From positions 65,650 through 92,779 of IMG/VR virus record IMGVR_UViG_3300028024_000007: a stretch of DNA of 27,130 bases; one strand, written 5' to 3'. This stretch comes from a virus. Below the pieces are notes generated by a model, which saw only the letters and a list, made by a program, of their open reading frames with translations, ran no database searches and was not told the origin of the DNA. The translations under genes and the position numbers were made by a program. This document shows positions 4,321-23,159 of this stretch, in pieces; positions within the stretch are counted from its first letter, which is position 1, and every line of letters starts with the position of its first letter.

Positions 4321-4385
4321 GTGTGAGGTTGTCGGTTGGAACCAAGCCCGGGACCAGCGACAAAACCCGAACCCAGGAGATACCC

Positions 4386-5484: not shown

Positions 5485-5568
5485 CTCCTAGCGCTGCCTG
5501 CGGCCCCGGGTGCGACCGGGGCGGCGGGGAGCGGTGGATGCCCCGCCGTCCGAACCCAGGAGATACCC

Positions 5569-6164: not shown

Positions 6165-6204
6165 ACCCTCGCCCGTACCAACAGAGTCCCAGGAGGGATC
6201 CCCG

Positions 6205-6351: not shown

Positions 6352-6404
6352 ACTCTCACTCGGCGGGCCAAGCCCGGCCAGCCGGTGAACCCAGGAGGAT
6401 CGTC

Positions 6405-8334: not shown

Positions 8335-8558
8335 TGGCCGGCATGGCGAACCCGCGCGAGTACACCGAGCGGGAGGTCCAGCTCATCGAGCGCGCCGTCA
8401 CGCTCCTCCGCCGTGTGCGGGACGACCTGGTGGACGCCGGGGCCCTGCGCGCGGCGGAGGCGGCCAGGGAGTCGCTCCGGTCGGCGGAGGGGGCCCTCCG
8501 GCACATCCGCGGAGTGGTGGACCGGACGAGGGGGGGGCGCAGTGCGCCTGGCAGCTGA
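8334..8558 (+). CDS. Small hypothetical protein
   Basis: TGATG coupling; helical sequence. Confidence 0.6.
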   Translation: MAGMANPREYTEREVQLIERAVTLLRRVRDDLVDAGALRAAEAARESLRSAEGALRHIRGVVDRTRGGRSAPGS

Positions 8559-10770
8559 CAACCTGTGGGCGGTCATCGAGGCCGCCACGGCGGAGGAGCT
8601 CGACTGGCTGGACGGCTACCTGACCGTCCCGGTGAAGGGCGCCGAGTACAGCGAAGCGTACGAGCGCGGCGTGTGGGACGGGTCGGTGAAGCTCCTGGAC
8701 CGGAAGCGGTCCCGGATCGCCTCCGGGCTCCTGCGCCTGGTGGCCGGCCGCGCGAAGGAGGCCGGGTTCGCCTTCGAGGTGAAGGACGTCAGGACCAAGC
8801 CGTTCTGGGTCGTCGACAACCGGTGGGAGCCAGACGCGATCCCCTGGCTCCGCGACTACCAGCGCGAGGCGCTGGGGGTCGTGCTCGGTCGCGGGCGGGG
8901 CATCGTCTCCATGCCGACCGGATGTTTGTCGGGCGACACGGAGATCGGGGCGTACCGGGCTGGTCGCAGCTTTCGGATCAAGATCCGGGATCTGGAGCGC
9001 GGACAGAACGGGCGCGGCCTGCGCCCGTGGACGCAGGATATCCAGACCAAGGTCCGGTGCCGAGAGGAGGACGGGTTCATCAGAGTTCGTTCGATGAAGG
9101 GGGTCTACCGTAGCGGCATCAAGACCACCTTCACCGTGGAGACGAAGGGCGGAAAAAAAATCCGCGCGACTGCAGACCATCGGTTCCTCACGGTCTCGGG
9201 ATGGGAGCGCCTGGGAGACCTGTCGCCCGGGATGCACGTGTTCGTGGAGAAGTCACGCGGAGGCGGAGGTAAGCCGAAGGGGAAGAAGAATTGGTACCAG
9301 CTCGTCGCCGGGCTTCGCGCGCACCCGTACGTTGGGCGGAAGGGCGTGAAACCCGGCAAGGGCGGGTGGAGTGTACCGAAGCACAGGCTCGTCGCGGAGG
9401 CGCGACTCAACGGACTCTCGTTCGAGAAGTTCGTCGGACTGGTCAGGCGTGGTCGCATCGCTGACCTGAAGTTCCTGGACCCGAAGGTCGTCTCCGTCCA
9501 CCACCGGGACGAGAACCCGCGCAACAACGAAGGCTGGAACCTGGATGTCATGCCGAAGGACGAGCATCACAGGGTTCACGGGAAACAGGGCGGATGGCAG
9601 CACGTCACGGCCTCAACGTTCCTGGACGAGATCGTCTCGATCGAACGGTTCGGAGAGGAGGAGACGTTCGACATCGAGATGGAGGCCGATCCGCGCAACT
9701 TCATCGCGAACGGGATCGTCGTTCACAATTCTGGAAAAACACAGGTGTTCTCCGCCCTCGGCGCGTGCGTGGGGATCCGCTGGCTCGTCCTGGTCGACAC
9801 GAAGGACCTGATGCACCAGGCGGCCGACCGCTTCTACCAGCTGACCGGCGAGCGCGCCGGCCTGGCGGGGGACGGCGAGTGGGAGCCGAGGCGGTACACC
9901 GTCGCGACCCTGCAGACCCTGCACAAGCACATGGGGGACAAGGGGCGCGTCGACCAGCTCCTGGCGTCGGCGCAGGGGATGATCGCGGACGAGGTCCAGG
10001 TCCTCTCGGCGACCGAGTTCCGCAAGGTGGCGGTGGCCACGGTGAACGCCTGGTGGCGGGTGGGGTTCTCCGCCACGCCGTTCGAGCGGTCCGACGAGGC
10101 GGACTACCGGGCGATCGAGGTGCTCGGGCCGCTCATCCACGACGTGATGCCGGGACCGCTCATCGCCGCCGGCTGGCTGGCCGAGCCGAGGATCTGGATG
10201 GTCCGGCACCAGCACCAGAAGATGACCGGGTCGTTCGCCGAGGTGTACGAGGCCGGGGTCACCCTGTGCGAGGGGCGCAACGCGCTGGTCAGGCGCATCG
10301 TCGCCGACCGCGACCTCTGCCCACGGCCGTCGATGCTGTTCTTCTCGAAGCTCGCCCACGGGCGGGCGCTCGACCGGTCGCTGAACCCGCTCGGGGTCCG
10401 CACCGTGTTCGTTGAGGGGGCCTCGAGCTCGCGGGCGCGGGACTCCGCCCGCCACCAGCTCCGCGTCCGCCTGCGCGACGTCCTGGTGACGTCCAAGGTG
10501 TTCAACAAGGGGATCGACATCCCCGAGGTCGAGGGGGGCGTGAACGCCGCCGCCGGCGACAGCCGGATCGACGCGCTCCAGAAGGTCGGCCGGCTCATGC
10601 GCGTGGTGGAGGGCAAGAACCGCGTCGTCCGGTACTTCGACTTCGACGACGTCGGGAACCGCTGGCTCGAGCAGCACTCCCGCCACCGCGCCGACGCGTT
10701 CCGATCTCGCGGGTACACCGTCCACCACGTGCGCCCGGAGGACCTGGGCGCGATCGCGAGGGCCGCGTGA
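8542..10770 (+). CDS. SF2 (UvsW/XPB-like) helicase containing an intein
   Basis: WDGSVKL, Q motif LRDYQREA, Walker A PTG/SGKT split by the intein, DEVQ, FSATP, KGIDIP, QKVGRLMR. Confidence 0.9.
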   Translation: MRLAADNLWAVIEAATAEELDWLDGYLTVPVKGAEYSEAYERGVWDGSVKLLDRKRSRIASGLLRLVAGRAKEAGFAFEVKDVRTKPFWVVDNRWEPDAIPWLRDYQREALGVVLGRGRGIVSMPTGCLSGDTEIGAYRAGRSFRIKIRDLERGQNGRGLRPWTQDIQTKVRCREEDGFIRVRSMKGVYRSGIKTTFTVETKGGKKIRATADHRFLTVSGWERLGDLSPGMHVFVEKSRGGGGKPKGKKNWYQLVAGLRAHPYVGRKGVKPGKGGWSVPKHRLVAEARLNGLSFEKFVGLVRRGRIADLKFLDPKVVSVHHRDENPRNNEGWNLDVMPKDEHHRVHGKQGGWQHVTASTFLDEIVSIERFGEEETFDIEMEADPRNFIANGIVVHNSGKTQVFSALGACVGIRWLVLVDTKDLMHQAADRFYQLTGERAGLAGDGEWEPRRYTVATLQTLHKHMGDKGRVDQLLASAQGMIADEVQVLSATEFRKVAVATVNAWWRVGFSATPFERSDEADYRAIEVLGPLIHDVMPGPLIAAGWLAEPRIWMVRHQHQKMTGSFAEVYEAGVTLCEGRNALVRRIVADRDLCPRPSMLFFSKLAHGRALDRSLNPLGVRTVFVEGASSSRARDSARHQLRVRLRDVLVTSKVFNKGIDIPEVEGGVNAAAGDSRIDALQKVGRLMRVVEGKNRVVRYFDFDDVGNRWLEQHSRHRADAFRSRGYTVHHVRPEDLGAIARAA
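8923..9729 (+). mobile_element. 269-aa intein with HNH homing endonuclease
   Basis: N-terminal CLSGDTEI, block B IRATADHRF, C-terminal NFIANGIVVHN followed by Ser+1; internal VHHRDENPRNN...NL...EHHRVH; AT-richer codons than the exteins. Confidence 0.93.
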
Positions 10771-17684: not shown

Positions 17685-18082
17685 TGGCGAAGCCCGCGCC
17701 CGCGAAGACGTTCGCGACCTACTCTCCGAGCTCGTCCATCTGGACTCCGATCTACGAACTGACGAAGGAGTTCGTGACCTGGGAGGTGCTCTGCCCCGGG
17801 TGCCTGAAGGACTTCGTCTCCCGGCGCTGGACGCCGAAGGCGGTCGGGCTCGCGCCCCAGAAGTGTCTCCGCTGCGCTGCCCGCGCGGCCAACAAGCAAA
17901 CCCAGGAGGTCCCCCGTGCCCAGACGACCGAGCCCGAAGAAGCCCGACCGAACCACGATTCGGAACGCCGTCCCGCTGACCCTGCACCCGCGCCGGCCGG
18001 AGGACCTGCTCTCCGCCTGCAACCTGTGCGGCGTGCCGGGCCCGCTCGACAAAAACCCGCAGCGCGAGCACGACGAGCATGA
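17684..18082 (+). CDS. Hypothetical zinc-ribbon protein; 3' end overlaps the next gene
   Basis: TGATG coupling; CPGC and CLRC. Confidence 0.55.
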   Translation: MAKPAPAKTFATYSPSSSIWTPIYELTKEFVTWEVLCPGCLKDFVSRRWTPKAVGLAPQKCLRCAARAANKQTQEVPRAQTTEPEEARPNHDSERRPADPAPAPAGGPALRLQPVRRAGPARQKPAARARRA

Positions 18083-20109: not shown

Positions 20110-20176
20110 CGGCCAATATAGACTGCGAACCCCGGCCGCCGCCCGCGGACAGGGACCCAACCCAGGAGGAGTGACG

Positions 20177-20740: not shown

Positions 20741-20774
20741 ACCGGCGTCGGCCAACACAGAAGACGGAGACGAG

Positions 20775-21275
20775 ATGCTCAAGTTTACGATCACGATTGA
20801 GGCCGGCGACCCCGGCGAGGTGGGCCGCTGGGTCGGCGCCGCGCTGGCGGCGGTCGAGAGGGGAGTCTGCGATGGCAAGGCGTCGGAGGGCGCGGCGGCG
20901 CCGGCAGCTGCACGTGGTCTACCGCGGGAGGATGAACCGGCTGGCGCGCCGGCGCACGCTCCAGTGGCTCAGCAGCGCGCAGGGTATCCGGTGGAAGGCG
21001 GCGCAGGCAGAGATGCTCCTGGGGCTCCTGTTCCGGGACGCCCTGTTCTCGCGCCTGCTGTCCCGCGAGCCGATCCCTCCCGGTACGCCACCGCCACCAC
21101 GATGCTGAAGCTCCTGAAGCTCCTGCAGTCGGACGGGTACATCACGCACGACGCCATCCTGGCGCGCGCCGAGGAACTCCACCGCGGGAGGACGGTGCCG
21201 GTGCTGGCCATGATCCCCGCCGAGGACCTGACCGACCGGGTGGCGGTCGCCTGCGACTCGCTGGGGATCGACTGA
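20775..21275 (+). CDS. Hypothetical protein with a Pro/Ala-rich centre
   Basis: GGAG RBS; ends have normal GC3 but the centre does not (see nested ORF). Confidence 0.55.
   Translation: MLKFTITIEAGDPGEVGRWVGAALAAVERGVCDGKASEGAAAPAAARGLPREDEPAGAPAHAPVAQQRAGYPVEGGAGRDAPGAPVPGRPVLAPAVPRADPSRYATATTMLKLLKLLQSDGYITHDAILARAEELHRGRTVPVLAMIPAEDLTDRVAVACDSLGID
20872..21108 (+). CDS. Nested +1-frame ORF: 78-aa Arg-rich protein
   Basis: GAGAGGGGAG RBS; 55 of 57 codons G/C-ending over 20905-21075 (hand count). Confidence 0.55.
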   Translation: MARRRRARRRRQLHVVYRGRMNRLARRRTLQWLSSAQGIRWKAAQAEMLLGLLFRDALFSRLLSREPIPPGTPPPPRC

Positions 21276-21748
21276 TGGCCGCCCCGGTGAGGCCCCCGGC
21301 CACGACCGAAGCCGACGTGAAGAACGCGGTGTCCATCCGCGCCGACGTCCAGCTGGAGTACATCCAGCTCCCGTCGATCTTGGCCCGGTGGGGGAGCGAG
21401 CGCGTGGCCCTCGCGAAGGCCCAGCGCCTGGCGGAACTGGATCTCGAGGTGGTGAAGGCGTCCGCGAAGAAGACGGCCAAGGAGGCGCGCCTGGCGGAGG
21501 TCGAGGCCGCCGGGAAGGACTCGAAGCTGAAGCCGCTCTCCGAGGACGCGGCGGACGATGCCGTGACGCTCTCGGCGGAGTACCGCCAGGCGCGCCTCCG
21601 GGTCATCGACGCGACGGAGCGCAAGGAGCAGGCGCAGGTGATGGTGGACGCGGTCGCCGCGAAGAAGGACATGCTCGTCTCCCTCGGCGCGGACCTCCGC
21701 GCCGAGAAGGAAGCGGACCCCTCGATCCGAGACCGACGCCCGCGGTAG
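21275..21748 (+). CDS. UvsY-like recombination mediator (coiled-coil)
   Basis: All-helical 157 aa with LSEDAADDAV..SAEY and KKDMLVSLGADLRAE; lies upstream of the SSB and RecA genes. Confidence 0.6.
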   Translation: MAAPVRPPATTEADVKNAVSIRADVQLEYIQLPSILARWGSERVALAKAQRLAELDLEVVKASAKKTAKEARLAEVEAAGKDSKLKPLSEDAADDAVTLSAEYRQARLRVIDATERKEQAQVMVDAVAAKKDMLVSLGADLRAEKEADPSIRDRRPR

Positions 21749-21755
21749 TTAGCTT

Positions 21756-21888
21756 TCTCCCCTCGCCGGTAAGGGTGCGGCCGACCCAGGATGGTCCTGG
21801 GTCGGGGCAAGACCGCCTCCTGGGTTCCGGGGATCCTCGCGCGCCGGTCCGCGAGCACGAGGGGGGAGTCCGAGGCCGGCCTTATTTT
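21756..21888 (+). ncRNA. Candidate structured RNA or leader containing an anti-RBS segment
   Basis: Closing stem CTCCCCTCG/CGAGGGGGGAG, perfect 11-bp hairpin 21781-21805, CTCGCG/CGCGAG hairpin, and CCTCCTGGGTTC at 21816-21827. Confidence 0.5.
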
Positions 21889-21938
21889 CAACACGCAACA
21901 CGAACCACCAAAACACGCAGCACGAGGAGACGAACCAC

Positions 21939-23054
21939 ATGGCACGCAAGGGAGCAGCATCGAAGGCGGAGAACCAGGCCGGTGACCCGGAGGAGAAGGC
22001 GCTCGCGCCGGCCGCGCCTGCGGCGGTAGCCGAGGCGACGGCGGAGACGGACTGGGAGCCGGCCGACCCGGACTGGGTCCGCGAGGACTACGCCGACTAC
22101 GAGGAGAGCGCGGCCGAGCGGCGCCGCGCCGGCGCCGTGACGAAGCCGGAGAAGGGCAAGACGACCTGGCGGCCCCTCCCGCCGATCAAGGGGACCAAGC
22201 GCCTCTTCGGGCGCATCTGGACCCACAGCGTGAACAACGAGGTGCTGAACCGGATCACGCAGATCCTGGCGGCGCTCCCGGACGTCCCGCGCAAGGAGAT
22301 CGCCGACGCATTGAAGGTGTTCGACCTGGTGGAGTCGCACCTGGGGCAGGGGTTCAAGGCGACCGTCTGCCCGAGCAAGATGAGCGACGAGCCGTGCCTC
22401 TACTGCGACCTGGTCGCGCAGCTCTACAAGCTGGCCCGCGCGACGAAGGCGCTGGGCGCGGCGGCCGAGCTCGCCAAGGAGATCGGGTCCAAGGAGGAGA
22501 TCTTCGTGAACGCCGTCCGCCTGGACAAGAAGGAGGAGATGGACCGCGGCCCCCGCGCGCTGCAGCTGACCATCGGCCTCTACGAGAAGATGAACCGGAT
22601 CTGGAAGGAGCCCGAGACGGCCGAGCTGCTCGGCGGGGACTTCTCCCACCCGGAGACCGGGTTCAACCTGATCATCGACCGCATCGAGACCGGGAAGGAC
22701 ATCAAGATCGGGAACAAGTCCGTGAAGGAGACGAAGTACGAGATCTCCCCGTCGCGCCAGCGGACGAAGCTCCCGAACTACGACTGGCTGAAGCACATGC
22801 ACGACCTCACGAAGATCCGCGACCTGCCGGACGACGTGACCACGCGCGGGATCCTGGAGGGCGACGGGTCCGCCCCTGCCAAGGCCGACCCGAACGACCC
22901 GGACGAGCGCGCGTTCGGCGGCGGCCCGGCCCCGGCCCAGCGCCAGGTGGCCTCCCGCCCCGCCGGCAACGACGAGGACTGGATGGAAGACCCGGCGAAC
23001 CCCGGCGTCTTCGACTACCGCCGCAACCTCCGCGCGTCGGGGCGCTCGGTCTAG
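21939..23054 (+). CDS. T4 gp32-like single-stranded DNA-binding protein
   Basis: KGKTTWRPLPP, H...CPSK...PCLYCD zinc site, FVNAV, DFSHPETGFNLII, TKY; GAGGAG RBS. Confidence 0.75.
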   Translation: MARKGAASKAENQAGDPEEKALAPAAPAAVAEATAETDWEPADPDWVREDYADYEESAAERRRAGAVTKPEKGKTTWRPLPPIKGTKRLFGRIWTHSVNNEVLNRITQILAALPDVPRKEIADALKVFDLVESHLGQGFKATVCPSKMSDEPCLYCDLVAQLYKLARATKALGAAAELAKEIGSKEEIFVNAVRLDKKEEMDRGPRALQLTIGLYEKMNRIWKEPETAELLGGDFSHPETGFNLIIDRIETGKDIKIGNKSVKETKYEISPSRQRTKLPNYDWLKHMHDLTKIRDLPDDVTTRGILEGDGSAPAKADPNDPDERAFGGGPAPAQRQVASRPAGNDEDWMEDPANPGVFDYRRNLRASGRSV

Positions 23055-23072
23055 CCAGAAGCTCTCTGCACG

Positions 23073-23131
23073 GCCCGCGGCGCGCGCCTCCAACACCTCC
23101 TCCAACCGTGGCGGGGGCGCGCGCCGCGGGC
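23073..23131 (+). ncRNA. 19-bp hairpin with a 21-nt C/A-rich loop containing CACCTCCT
   Basis: GCCCGCGGCGCGCGCCTCC / GGGGGCGCGCGCCGCGGGC (one G-U pair); loop AACACCTCCTCCAACCGTGGC. Confidence 0.5.
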
Positions 23132-23159
23132 GGGCGGGGAATCTTCCGGGAATAATCCG

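What the first reader, a model, noticed from the sequence alone, without database searches (positions are those of the whole stretch)
21756..21888. Candidate phage anti-RBS RNA complementary to the phage's own shared ribosome-binding sites
Seen: a multi-stem intergenic element contains CCTCCTGGGTTC (21816-21827), the reverse complement of GAACCCAGGAGG. It can form 11-12 contiguous bp with the RBS of six same-strand genes (starts 2817, 4386, 5569, 6405 sigma-like, 17916, 20176/20177) and 9 bp with that of 6205; the adjacent CCGG can extend pairing to the 2817 leader. The element also holds its own ACCCAGGA, locked in a perfect 11-bp hairpin with another TCCTGGGT, so two conformations are possible. 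It ends near TTATTTT. Inference: an RNA made with the recombination operon that shuts off translation of earlier genes through a common RBS address, a one-to-many temporal switch. I do not recognise it as a described family.
Basis: partly seen in the sequence, partly recalled or inferred. Interest (0 to 1): 0.85.

Follow-up and report, generated by a model that had tools for sequence, protein, structure and literature searches.

The report
Knotted RNA ahead of phage SSB
The element is one member of a small family of knotted RNA structures that sit just before the DNA-coating (SSB) gene in several related uncultured phages and probably help that protein limit its own production; the match to the phage's shared ribosome-binding sites is real but lies in a variable, folded-away arm found only in this phage.

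Summary
The ribosome-binding motif AACCCAGGAG precedes 7 genes of this 92.8-kb phage, and its only reverse copy lies in the element (0.9% of letter-shuffled 10-mers occur in intergenic DNA). The element is the 5' part of the leader of a gp32-fold SSB gene. Five of 12 orthologous leaders carry a homologous + strand fold: an outer helix, a variable arm, and a small hairpin whose loop pairs with a downstream strand (a pseudoknot). All leaders end in an unfolded A/C-rich tract. The 'seed' lies in the variable arm, is predicted paired, is absent from the other four copies, and has no promoter of its own. The module is missing in the closest relatives and has been replaced between two phages with 99% identical SSBs. 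Best reading: a T4 gene-32-like autoregulatory leader (0.45). An anti-RBS role for this phage's arm stays open (0.2), because the RBS is uniform only in this lineage and cluster K1 mycobacteriophages show a loop-displayed reverse copy. The scan noted both SSB-leader pseudoknots and anti-RBS RNAs before on other DNA. No expression data were obtained.

The parts
21275..21748 (+). Upstream gene, 157 aa, unknown function (phrog_1069); its stop codon bounds the leader in nearly all relatives
21755..21765 (+). P1 5' strand (outer helix, 11 bp with 21858-21868); sequence differs in each of 5 copies, pairing kept
   Evidence: (p 0.79)
21766..21837 (+). Variable arm: differs in every copy, and is reduced to a few nt in L011
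21781..21805 (+). 11-bp hairpin in the variable arm holding the sense ACCCAGGA copy; loosely similar to a hairpin in L024 that lacks the motif
21816..21827 (+). Anti-RBS 12-mer (the finding's seed); near-duplicate of the hairpin's 3' arm; predicted paired in a 21818-23/21827-32 stem or with 21773-80; unique to this phage
21838..21853 (+). Conserved core hairpin P3 (CGC/GCG) with loop GCCGGTCC at 21843-21850
21858..21868 (+). P1 3' strand (purine-rich)
21874..21880 (+). Pseudoknot 3' strand GGCCGGC: 7 bp with the P3 loop (-13.1 kcal/mol); C-G to U-A compensatory change in L010/L034
21882..21888 (+). U-rich stretch TTATTTT; similar only in L024
21884..21938 (+). Unfolded A/C-rich tract with SD GAGGAG (21924-21929); least structured leader of 144 in the genome; A+C 76-84% in 11 relatives
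21939..23054 (+). gp32-fold single-stranded DNA binding protein, with invariant H96, C144, C153, C156
2798..2807 (+). Shared extended RBS AACCCAGGAG, gene 2817
4370..4379 (+). Shared extended RBS, gene 4386
5553..5562 (+). Shared extended RBS, gene 5569
6188..6196 (+). Shorter RBS copy (9 nt), gene 6205
6388..6397 (+). Shared extended RBS, sigma-like gene 6405 (PF04542 below cut-off)
17899..17908 (+). Shared extended RBS, gene 17916
20159..20168 (+). Shared extended RBS, gene 20177
20749..20757 (+). Nearest upstream promoter-like motif CGGCCAACA (11:0 strand bias in this genome and in G001); inferred source of read-through transcription over the element

Best explanation
The element is an optional, exchangeable pseudoknot module at the 5' end of the leader of a gp32-type SSB gene, acting in cis like the T4 gene 32 translational operator. 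Shown by comparison: outer helix P1, variable arm, hairpin P3 whose loop pairs with a strand 3' of P1, then about 55 unfolded A/C-rich bases holding the SD. Inferred: the region is transcribed by read-through from the CGGCCAAYA promoters upstream; when free SSB exceeds ssDNA it loads at or beside the pseudoknot and coats the unfolded tract (about 8 monomers at about 7 nt each, own knowledge), blocking the SD; ssDNA made in replication and recombination draws SSB off and translation resumes. The knot also walls the tract off from GC-rich upstream mRNA. In this reading the anti-RBS 12-mer is a lineage-specific feature of the variable arm, probably a local duplicate of the neighbouring hairpin arm.
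For: Position between the upstream stop and ssb in every copy. SSB has the gp32 fold: Foldseek top hits 1gpc and 2a1k, E about 1e-6; VIA Z 10.4, rmsd 4.0 over 174 residues; PF08804 E 1.6e-5, just under cut-off. Unfolded A/C tract: -0.3 kcal/mol against a genome median of -18.3, rank 1 of 144, kept in 11 leaders. Pseudoknot descriptor hits each of the 5 long leaders once, nowhere else in three related genomes, and 0 times in 682 kb of other held DNA. All 5 keep 7 pseudoknot pairs, with one compensatory change. P1 is different in all 5 yet pairs (shuffle p 0.04, 0.17, 0.002, 0.04, 0.05). T4's operator is a pseudoknot plus a more than 40-nt unfolded repeat tract, and RB49 lacks the knot (PMC535899, PMC3014915).
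Against: Seven of 12 orthologous leaders lack the module, including the three closest by protein identity, so it is not needed. Its topology (multiloop, 70-130 nt) is unlike T4's compact 28-nt H-type knot. In L010, L011 and L034 a further long hairpin separates the knot from the unfolded tract. Wholesale replacement between phages with 99% identical SSB is odd for a protein-specific site. Only 5 copies (4 independent contexts); the descriptor was derived from them. The knotted fold is only about as stable as the best unknotted fold by rough estimate. No binding, transcript or structure-probing data.
Confidence: 0.45

Rival explanations
1. One reading: in this lineage the variable arm was co-opted as an anti-RBS guide. 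The ssb transcript, or a processed piece held together by the pseudoknot scaffold, pairs with the shared RBS of 7-9 early and replication genes and lowers their translation.
For: Single reverse copy in intergenic structured RNA, about 1% by permutation. Seven exact RBS copies against 0.1-0.3 expected, in three genome regions, while G001 orthologues have different RBSs: uniform RBS and reverse copy are both specific to this lineage. Net pairing energies -8.6 to -14.3 kcal/mol. Precedent: cluster K1 mycobacteriophages have one reverse SAS (PMC3203893), which I found in a hairpin loop in a region shared by 138 records.
Against: Seed predicted paired, not loop-displayed as in c4 RNA or the K1 hairpin. 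Absent from 4 homologous modules; the L034 orthologue of gene 17916 has a different RBS and no specific match. G001 and G002 have shared RBS words but no intergenic reverse copy. No own promoter; terminator-like end not conserved. The seed can be explained as a duplicate of the adjacent hairpin arm.
Confidence: 0.2
2. The module is an autonomous RNA device that matures or protects the ssb mRNA: an undescribed self-cleaving ribozyme, or a ring-forming pseudoknot that stops 5'-3' exonucleases (topology like viral xrRNA, own knowledge). Such modules are gained, lost and swapped by recombination.
For: Minimal form of about 50 nt (L011), conserved unpaired core bases, dispensable variable arm, polyphyly on the SSB tree (3 changes; one clade rejected), clean replacement in L010/L034. 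The three closest relatives have a CGGCCAACA promoter-like motif where the window has the module, so the module may supply a 5' end by other means.
Against: No Rfam match at gathering score or at E up to 10 beyond chance. Manual fitting to HDV, twister and pistol layouts failed (own knowledge of consensus). No copies at other loci, in IMG/VR or convincingly in bacteria. L007, L019, L022 and L106 lack both promoter motif and module; L011 has both.
Confidence: 0.2
3. Intrinsic terminator or attenuator: the 21843-50/21874-80 helix forms as a plain hairpin before TTATTTT and limits read-through into ssb.
For: U-rich run follows the helix in the window and L024.
Against: No U-run in L010, L011, L034; not called by the terminator scan; plain-hairpin fold is about 9 kcal/mol worse than the free ensemble.
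Confidence: 0.08
4. The reverse copy is a real minus-strand RBS for a TTG ORF starting at 21810.
For: SD-to-TTG spacing is 5 nt and the frame is open to 21142.
Against: The frame is the antisense shadow of the GC3-rich 157-aa gene; 145 of 150 called genes are on +; no minus-strand promoter motif; the start lies in the non-conserved arm.
Confidence: 0.04

Closest known systems
Translational operator of T4/T2/RB69 gene 32 (PMC535899, PMC3014915)
   Same: gp32-fold SSB; pseudoknot 5' of an unfolded repeat-rich tract that holds the RBS; similar distance (knot ends 59 nt before ATG here, T4 knot starts at -67); absent in some relatives (RB49).
   Different: Knot is embedded in a multiloop with a variable arm rather than a 28-nt H-type; tract is A/C-rich, not UUAAA repeats; an extra hairpin in three copies; module is swapped between near-identical phages; no experiments.
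Start-Associated Sequences (SAS) of cluster K mycobacteriophages (PMC3203893)
   Same: An extended, partly non-16S-complementary RBS repeated before non-structural genes, one orientation, with a single reverse copy not at a gene start.
   Different: Different sequence; 7 copies not 11-19; lineage-specific; the K1 reverse copy is in a conserved hairpin loop while this one is predicted paired and unconserved.
c4 antisense RNA of phages P1/P7 (PMC12197685)
   Same: Phage RNA complementary to the RBS region of its own genes.
   Different: c4 presents its seeds in loops and has a defined target; here the seed is in a stem, would address 7-9 genes, and no Rfam match.

Membership tests
T4 gene 32-type autogenous operator | Downstream gene is a gp32-family SSB | tested here: met
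   Foldseek 1gpc E 5.9e-7; VIA Z 10.4; phrog_1192; PF08804 just under cut-off
T4 gene 32-type autogenous operator | Pseudoknot 5' of the RBS region, supported by covariation | tested here: met
   5 copies keep 7 pairs, one compensatory change, P1 fully co-varying; small sample
T4 gene 32-type autogenous operator | More than 40 nt unfolded, repeat-rich tract overlapping the RBS | tested here: met
   rank 1 of 144 leaders; kept in 11 relatives
T4 gene 32-type autogenous operator | Compact H-type knot of about 28 nt with UUAAA repeats | tested here: not met
   multiloop module of 50-130 nt; tract has 0-9% T. Works like it; not a homologue
T4 gene 32-type autogenous operator | SSB binds the leader and represses its own translation | not testable with these tools
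   needs footprinting and reporter assays
Trans-acting anti-RBS RNA (c4-like) | Complementarity to target RBS | tested here: met
   11-12 bp with 7 genes
Trans-acting anti-RBS RNA (c4-like) | Seed displayed single-stranded in a loop | tested here: not met
   most seed bases predicted paired; opening 5.9-8.2 kcal/mol; prediction only
Trans-acting anti-RBS RNA (c4-like) | Seed conserved and co-varying with the target motif | tested here: inconclusive
   negative in 4 homologous modules and 2 related genomes, but module-bearing relatives lack their early genes
Trans-acting anti-RBS RNA (c4-like) | Own promoter and terminator, or a defined processed RNA | tested here: inconclusive
Start-Associated Sequence (cluster K type), for the AACCCAGGAG motif | Repeated, one orientation, a few nt before starts, extends beyond 16S pairing, non-structural genes | tested here: met
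   7 forward copies, all before starts; 0.1-0.3 expected; sequence unrelated to the K motif
Rfam families (riboswitches, twister, pistol, hatchet, HDV-like, guanidine-I) | Covariance model match | tested here: not met
   none at gathering score; only Scr3920 at E 3.4, 12.6 against 88 bits; RF00442 none

The most novel reading that the evidence does not exclude
The pseudoknot module is a swappable scaffold on the ssb mRNA whose variable arm serves as a guide; in this phage the guide and a newly uniform RBS evolved together, so the SSB transcript both senses ssDNA through autorepression and shuts down a set of early and replication genes through one RBS address.
Probability: 0.15. Interest if true: 0.85.

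Novelty: new variant of a known kind. Interest (0 to 1): 0.5.

Why it matters
A 2010 review called the T4-type gene 32 pseudoknot possibly the only viral example of that kind of autoregulation (PMC3014915). An unrelated, larger knot at the same place in a distant high-GC phage family, with natural present/absent and swapped pairs (L022/L024, L010/L034), gives ready-made controls for asking what the knot adds to SSB autorepression. If the anti-RBS arm works, it would explain why some phages make their RBS uniform, the open SAS question, which is now directly testable in cultured cluster K1 phages.

Tried and rejected
Rfam at gathering and E-value thresholds: nothing credible. BLAST for further copies in the own genome: only the hairpin itself. 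Hairpin pattern in IMG/VR: 3 unrelated hits. Core patterns in IMG/VR: 0 and 45 hits, the latter mostly coding and none recognisable as the module. Bacterial genomes: 7 hits, 6 coding; a Streptomyces intergenic look-alike folds as a plain hairpin and is treated as chance. No cultured phage relative (RecA best 32%); host unknown. Stop-codon readthrough or frameshift into ssb rejected: spacer lengths 190, 194, 212, 146 give no common frame and the window has a stop 8 codons on. Anti-SD switch by the P1 5' strand: possible in the window but not in L010 or L034. HDV, twister, pistol, kink-turn, SAH and guanidine-I layouts fitted by hand from memory: none fits. PDB sequence search for the SSB: nothing. 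In the tree the L019 row was mistranslated and should be ignored; one search timed out.

Full report
Setting. The window is the right end of a 92,779-base, about 69% GC virus record with almost all genes on the + strand and no cultured relative. The element fills the first 130 nt of a 190-nt spacer between a 157-aa gene (21275-21748) and a 371-aa gene (21939-23054) followed by a RecA-like and an SbcD-like gene. The 371-aa protein is a gp32-type SSB: phrog_1192, AlphaFold model matched by Foldseek to T4 and RB69 gp32 cores at E about 1e-6 and by VIA at Z 10.4, with four invariant His/Cys residues that fit a zinc site (inference).

Observation. All sequence claims hold. AACCCAGGAG occurs 7 times forward, each before a start, and once in reverse, inside the element. 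Complementarity is 11-12 bp, and 9 bp for gene 6205. The 11-bp hairpin is real, but the alternative pairing has negligible probability and the seed is itself mostly paired. The reverse 10-mer is expected 0.05-0.19 times per genome strand, and 0.9% of its permutations occur in intergenic DNA. Motif genes rank near the top of an accessibility-corrected pairing scan, but this restates the complement.

What relatives show. Protein searches gave 12 orthologous ssb leaders. Seven are 48-83 nt and hold little more than an unfolded tract. Five (window, L010, L011, L024, L034) carry an extra GC-rich module. What these share is not the seed but a core 3' of it: a CGC/GCG hairpin with loop GCYGG(W)CC, a purine-rich strand that pairs with the start of the spacer (P1), a short linker, and GG-CCRGC, which pairs with the loop across P1, giving a pseudoknot. 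All five keep seven knot pairs, with a C-G to U-A change in L010/L034 and G-U pairs that fit the + strand only. P1 differs in all five and still pairs (the window tested was chosen after seeing the data). A descriptor of the core finds each long leader once, nothing else in three related genomes, and nothing in 682 kb of other DNA. The arm between P1 and the core, which holds the seed here, is different in each copy and only a few bases long in L011. The 55 nt before the ssb start are the least folded leader of the genome and are A/C-rich in 11 relatives; L106 is less so (62%).

Mobility. The module is polyphyletic on the SSB tree. L022 and L024 (SSB 83% identical) differ by its presence. L010 and L034 (SSB 99% identical) have near-identical flanks but different module sequences with the same fold. 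The three closest relatives have the strand-specific motif CGGCCAACA, a likely phage promoter (11:0 in two genomes; inference), at the place where the window has the module.

Mechanism. T4's gene 32 operator is a pseudoknot followed by more than 40 unfolded bases over the RBS, and RB49 lacks the knot (PMC535899, PMC3014915). The same protein fold, place and two-part layout make a cis-acting autoregulatory leader the best reading (0.45). Structure and layout are shown by comparison; transcription, SSB binding and repression are inferred. It works like the T4 operator but is not its homologue. A maturation device (ribozyme or nuclease block) fits the swapping better and is given 0.2.

The anti-RBS idea. 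Against it: buried seed, no conservation, no match between the other modules and leaders on their contigs, including the orthologue of target 17916, no intergenic reverse copy of the shared RBS words of G001 or G002 (G002 is 76% complete), and a simple origin as a duplicate of the neighbouring hairpin arm. For it: the RBS is uniform only in this lineage, which needs a cause, and there is a precedent. Cluster K1 mycobacteriophages have one reverse copy of their SAS (PMC3203893); I located it in a predicted hairpin loop, in a stretch shared by 138 records. Unchecked scan notes describe similar RNAs in other phages. I therefore keep 0.2. The two readings are not exclusive.

Verdict. A real, uncatalogued RNA module in a phage SSB leader; new variant of a known kind; the headline claim of a one-to-many RBS switch is unproven and failed the part of its conservation test that could be run. 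Interest 0.5.

Noticed in passing
L104 about 38635-38647 (Angelica) and L105 about 39871-39883 (Anaya): The single reverse-orientation SAS of cluster K1 mycobacteriophages lies in a predicted hairpin loop that displays the anti-SD; the stretch is intergenic in Anaya and shared by 138 phage records. A better anti-RBS RNA candidate than this window's, in cultured phages.
   Followed up: partly
window 1560, 15710, 17886, 20110, 20749, 24199: CGGCCAAYA motif, 11 forward and 0 reverse in this genome and in G001, often 8 nt before an ATG (leaderless starts); likely promoter of the phage sigma-like protein.
   Followed up: partly
window 2736, 4309, 6340 and genome 6687: Early promoter-like repeat around TTAC(G/T)GTA, with counterparts in G001 and G002, upstream of three of the RBS-motif genes.
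   Followed up: partly
window 23055-23159: Long GC hairpin between ssb and recA in all relatives examined; pyrimidine-rich loop with CCTCC in several; recA often lacks an SD. Its match to early leaders did not rank in a genome-wide pairing scan.
   Followed up: partly
L010 1411-1466, L011 59-130, L034 9877-9945: A second conserved long hairpin follows the pseudoknot in three relatives and is absent from the window.
   Followed up: no
L087 431-473: Streptomyces intergenic segment between speD and a polyamine-synthase-like gene resembles the core and is a roughly 50-nt presence/absence indel among species; folds as a plain hairpin, probably chance.
   Followed up: partly
G002 44021, 62876, 63483, 65912: A related phage has its own shared early RBS word CGAAAGG(AC), so lineage-specific uniform RBSs recur in this family.
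   Followed up: partly
window 8413-10770: UvsW-like helicase with an intein.
   Followed up: no
genome 38820 (outside window): The 12-mer CCAGGATGGTCC of the element's hairpin also occurs before a 568-aa structural-region gene, where it looks like a -10 box conserved in G001; probably coincidence.
   Followed up: no
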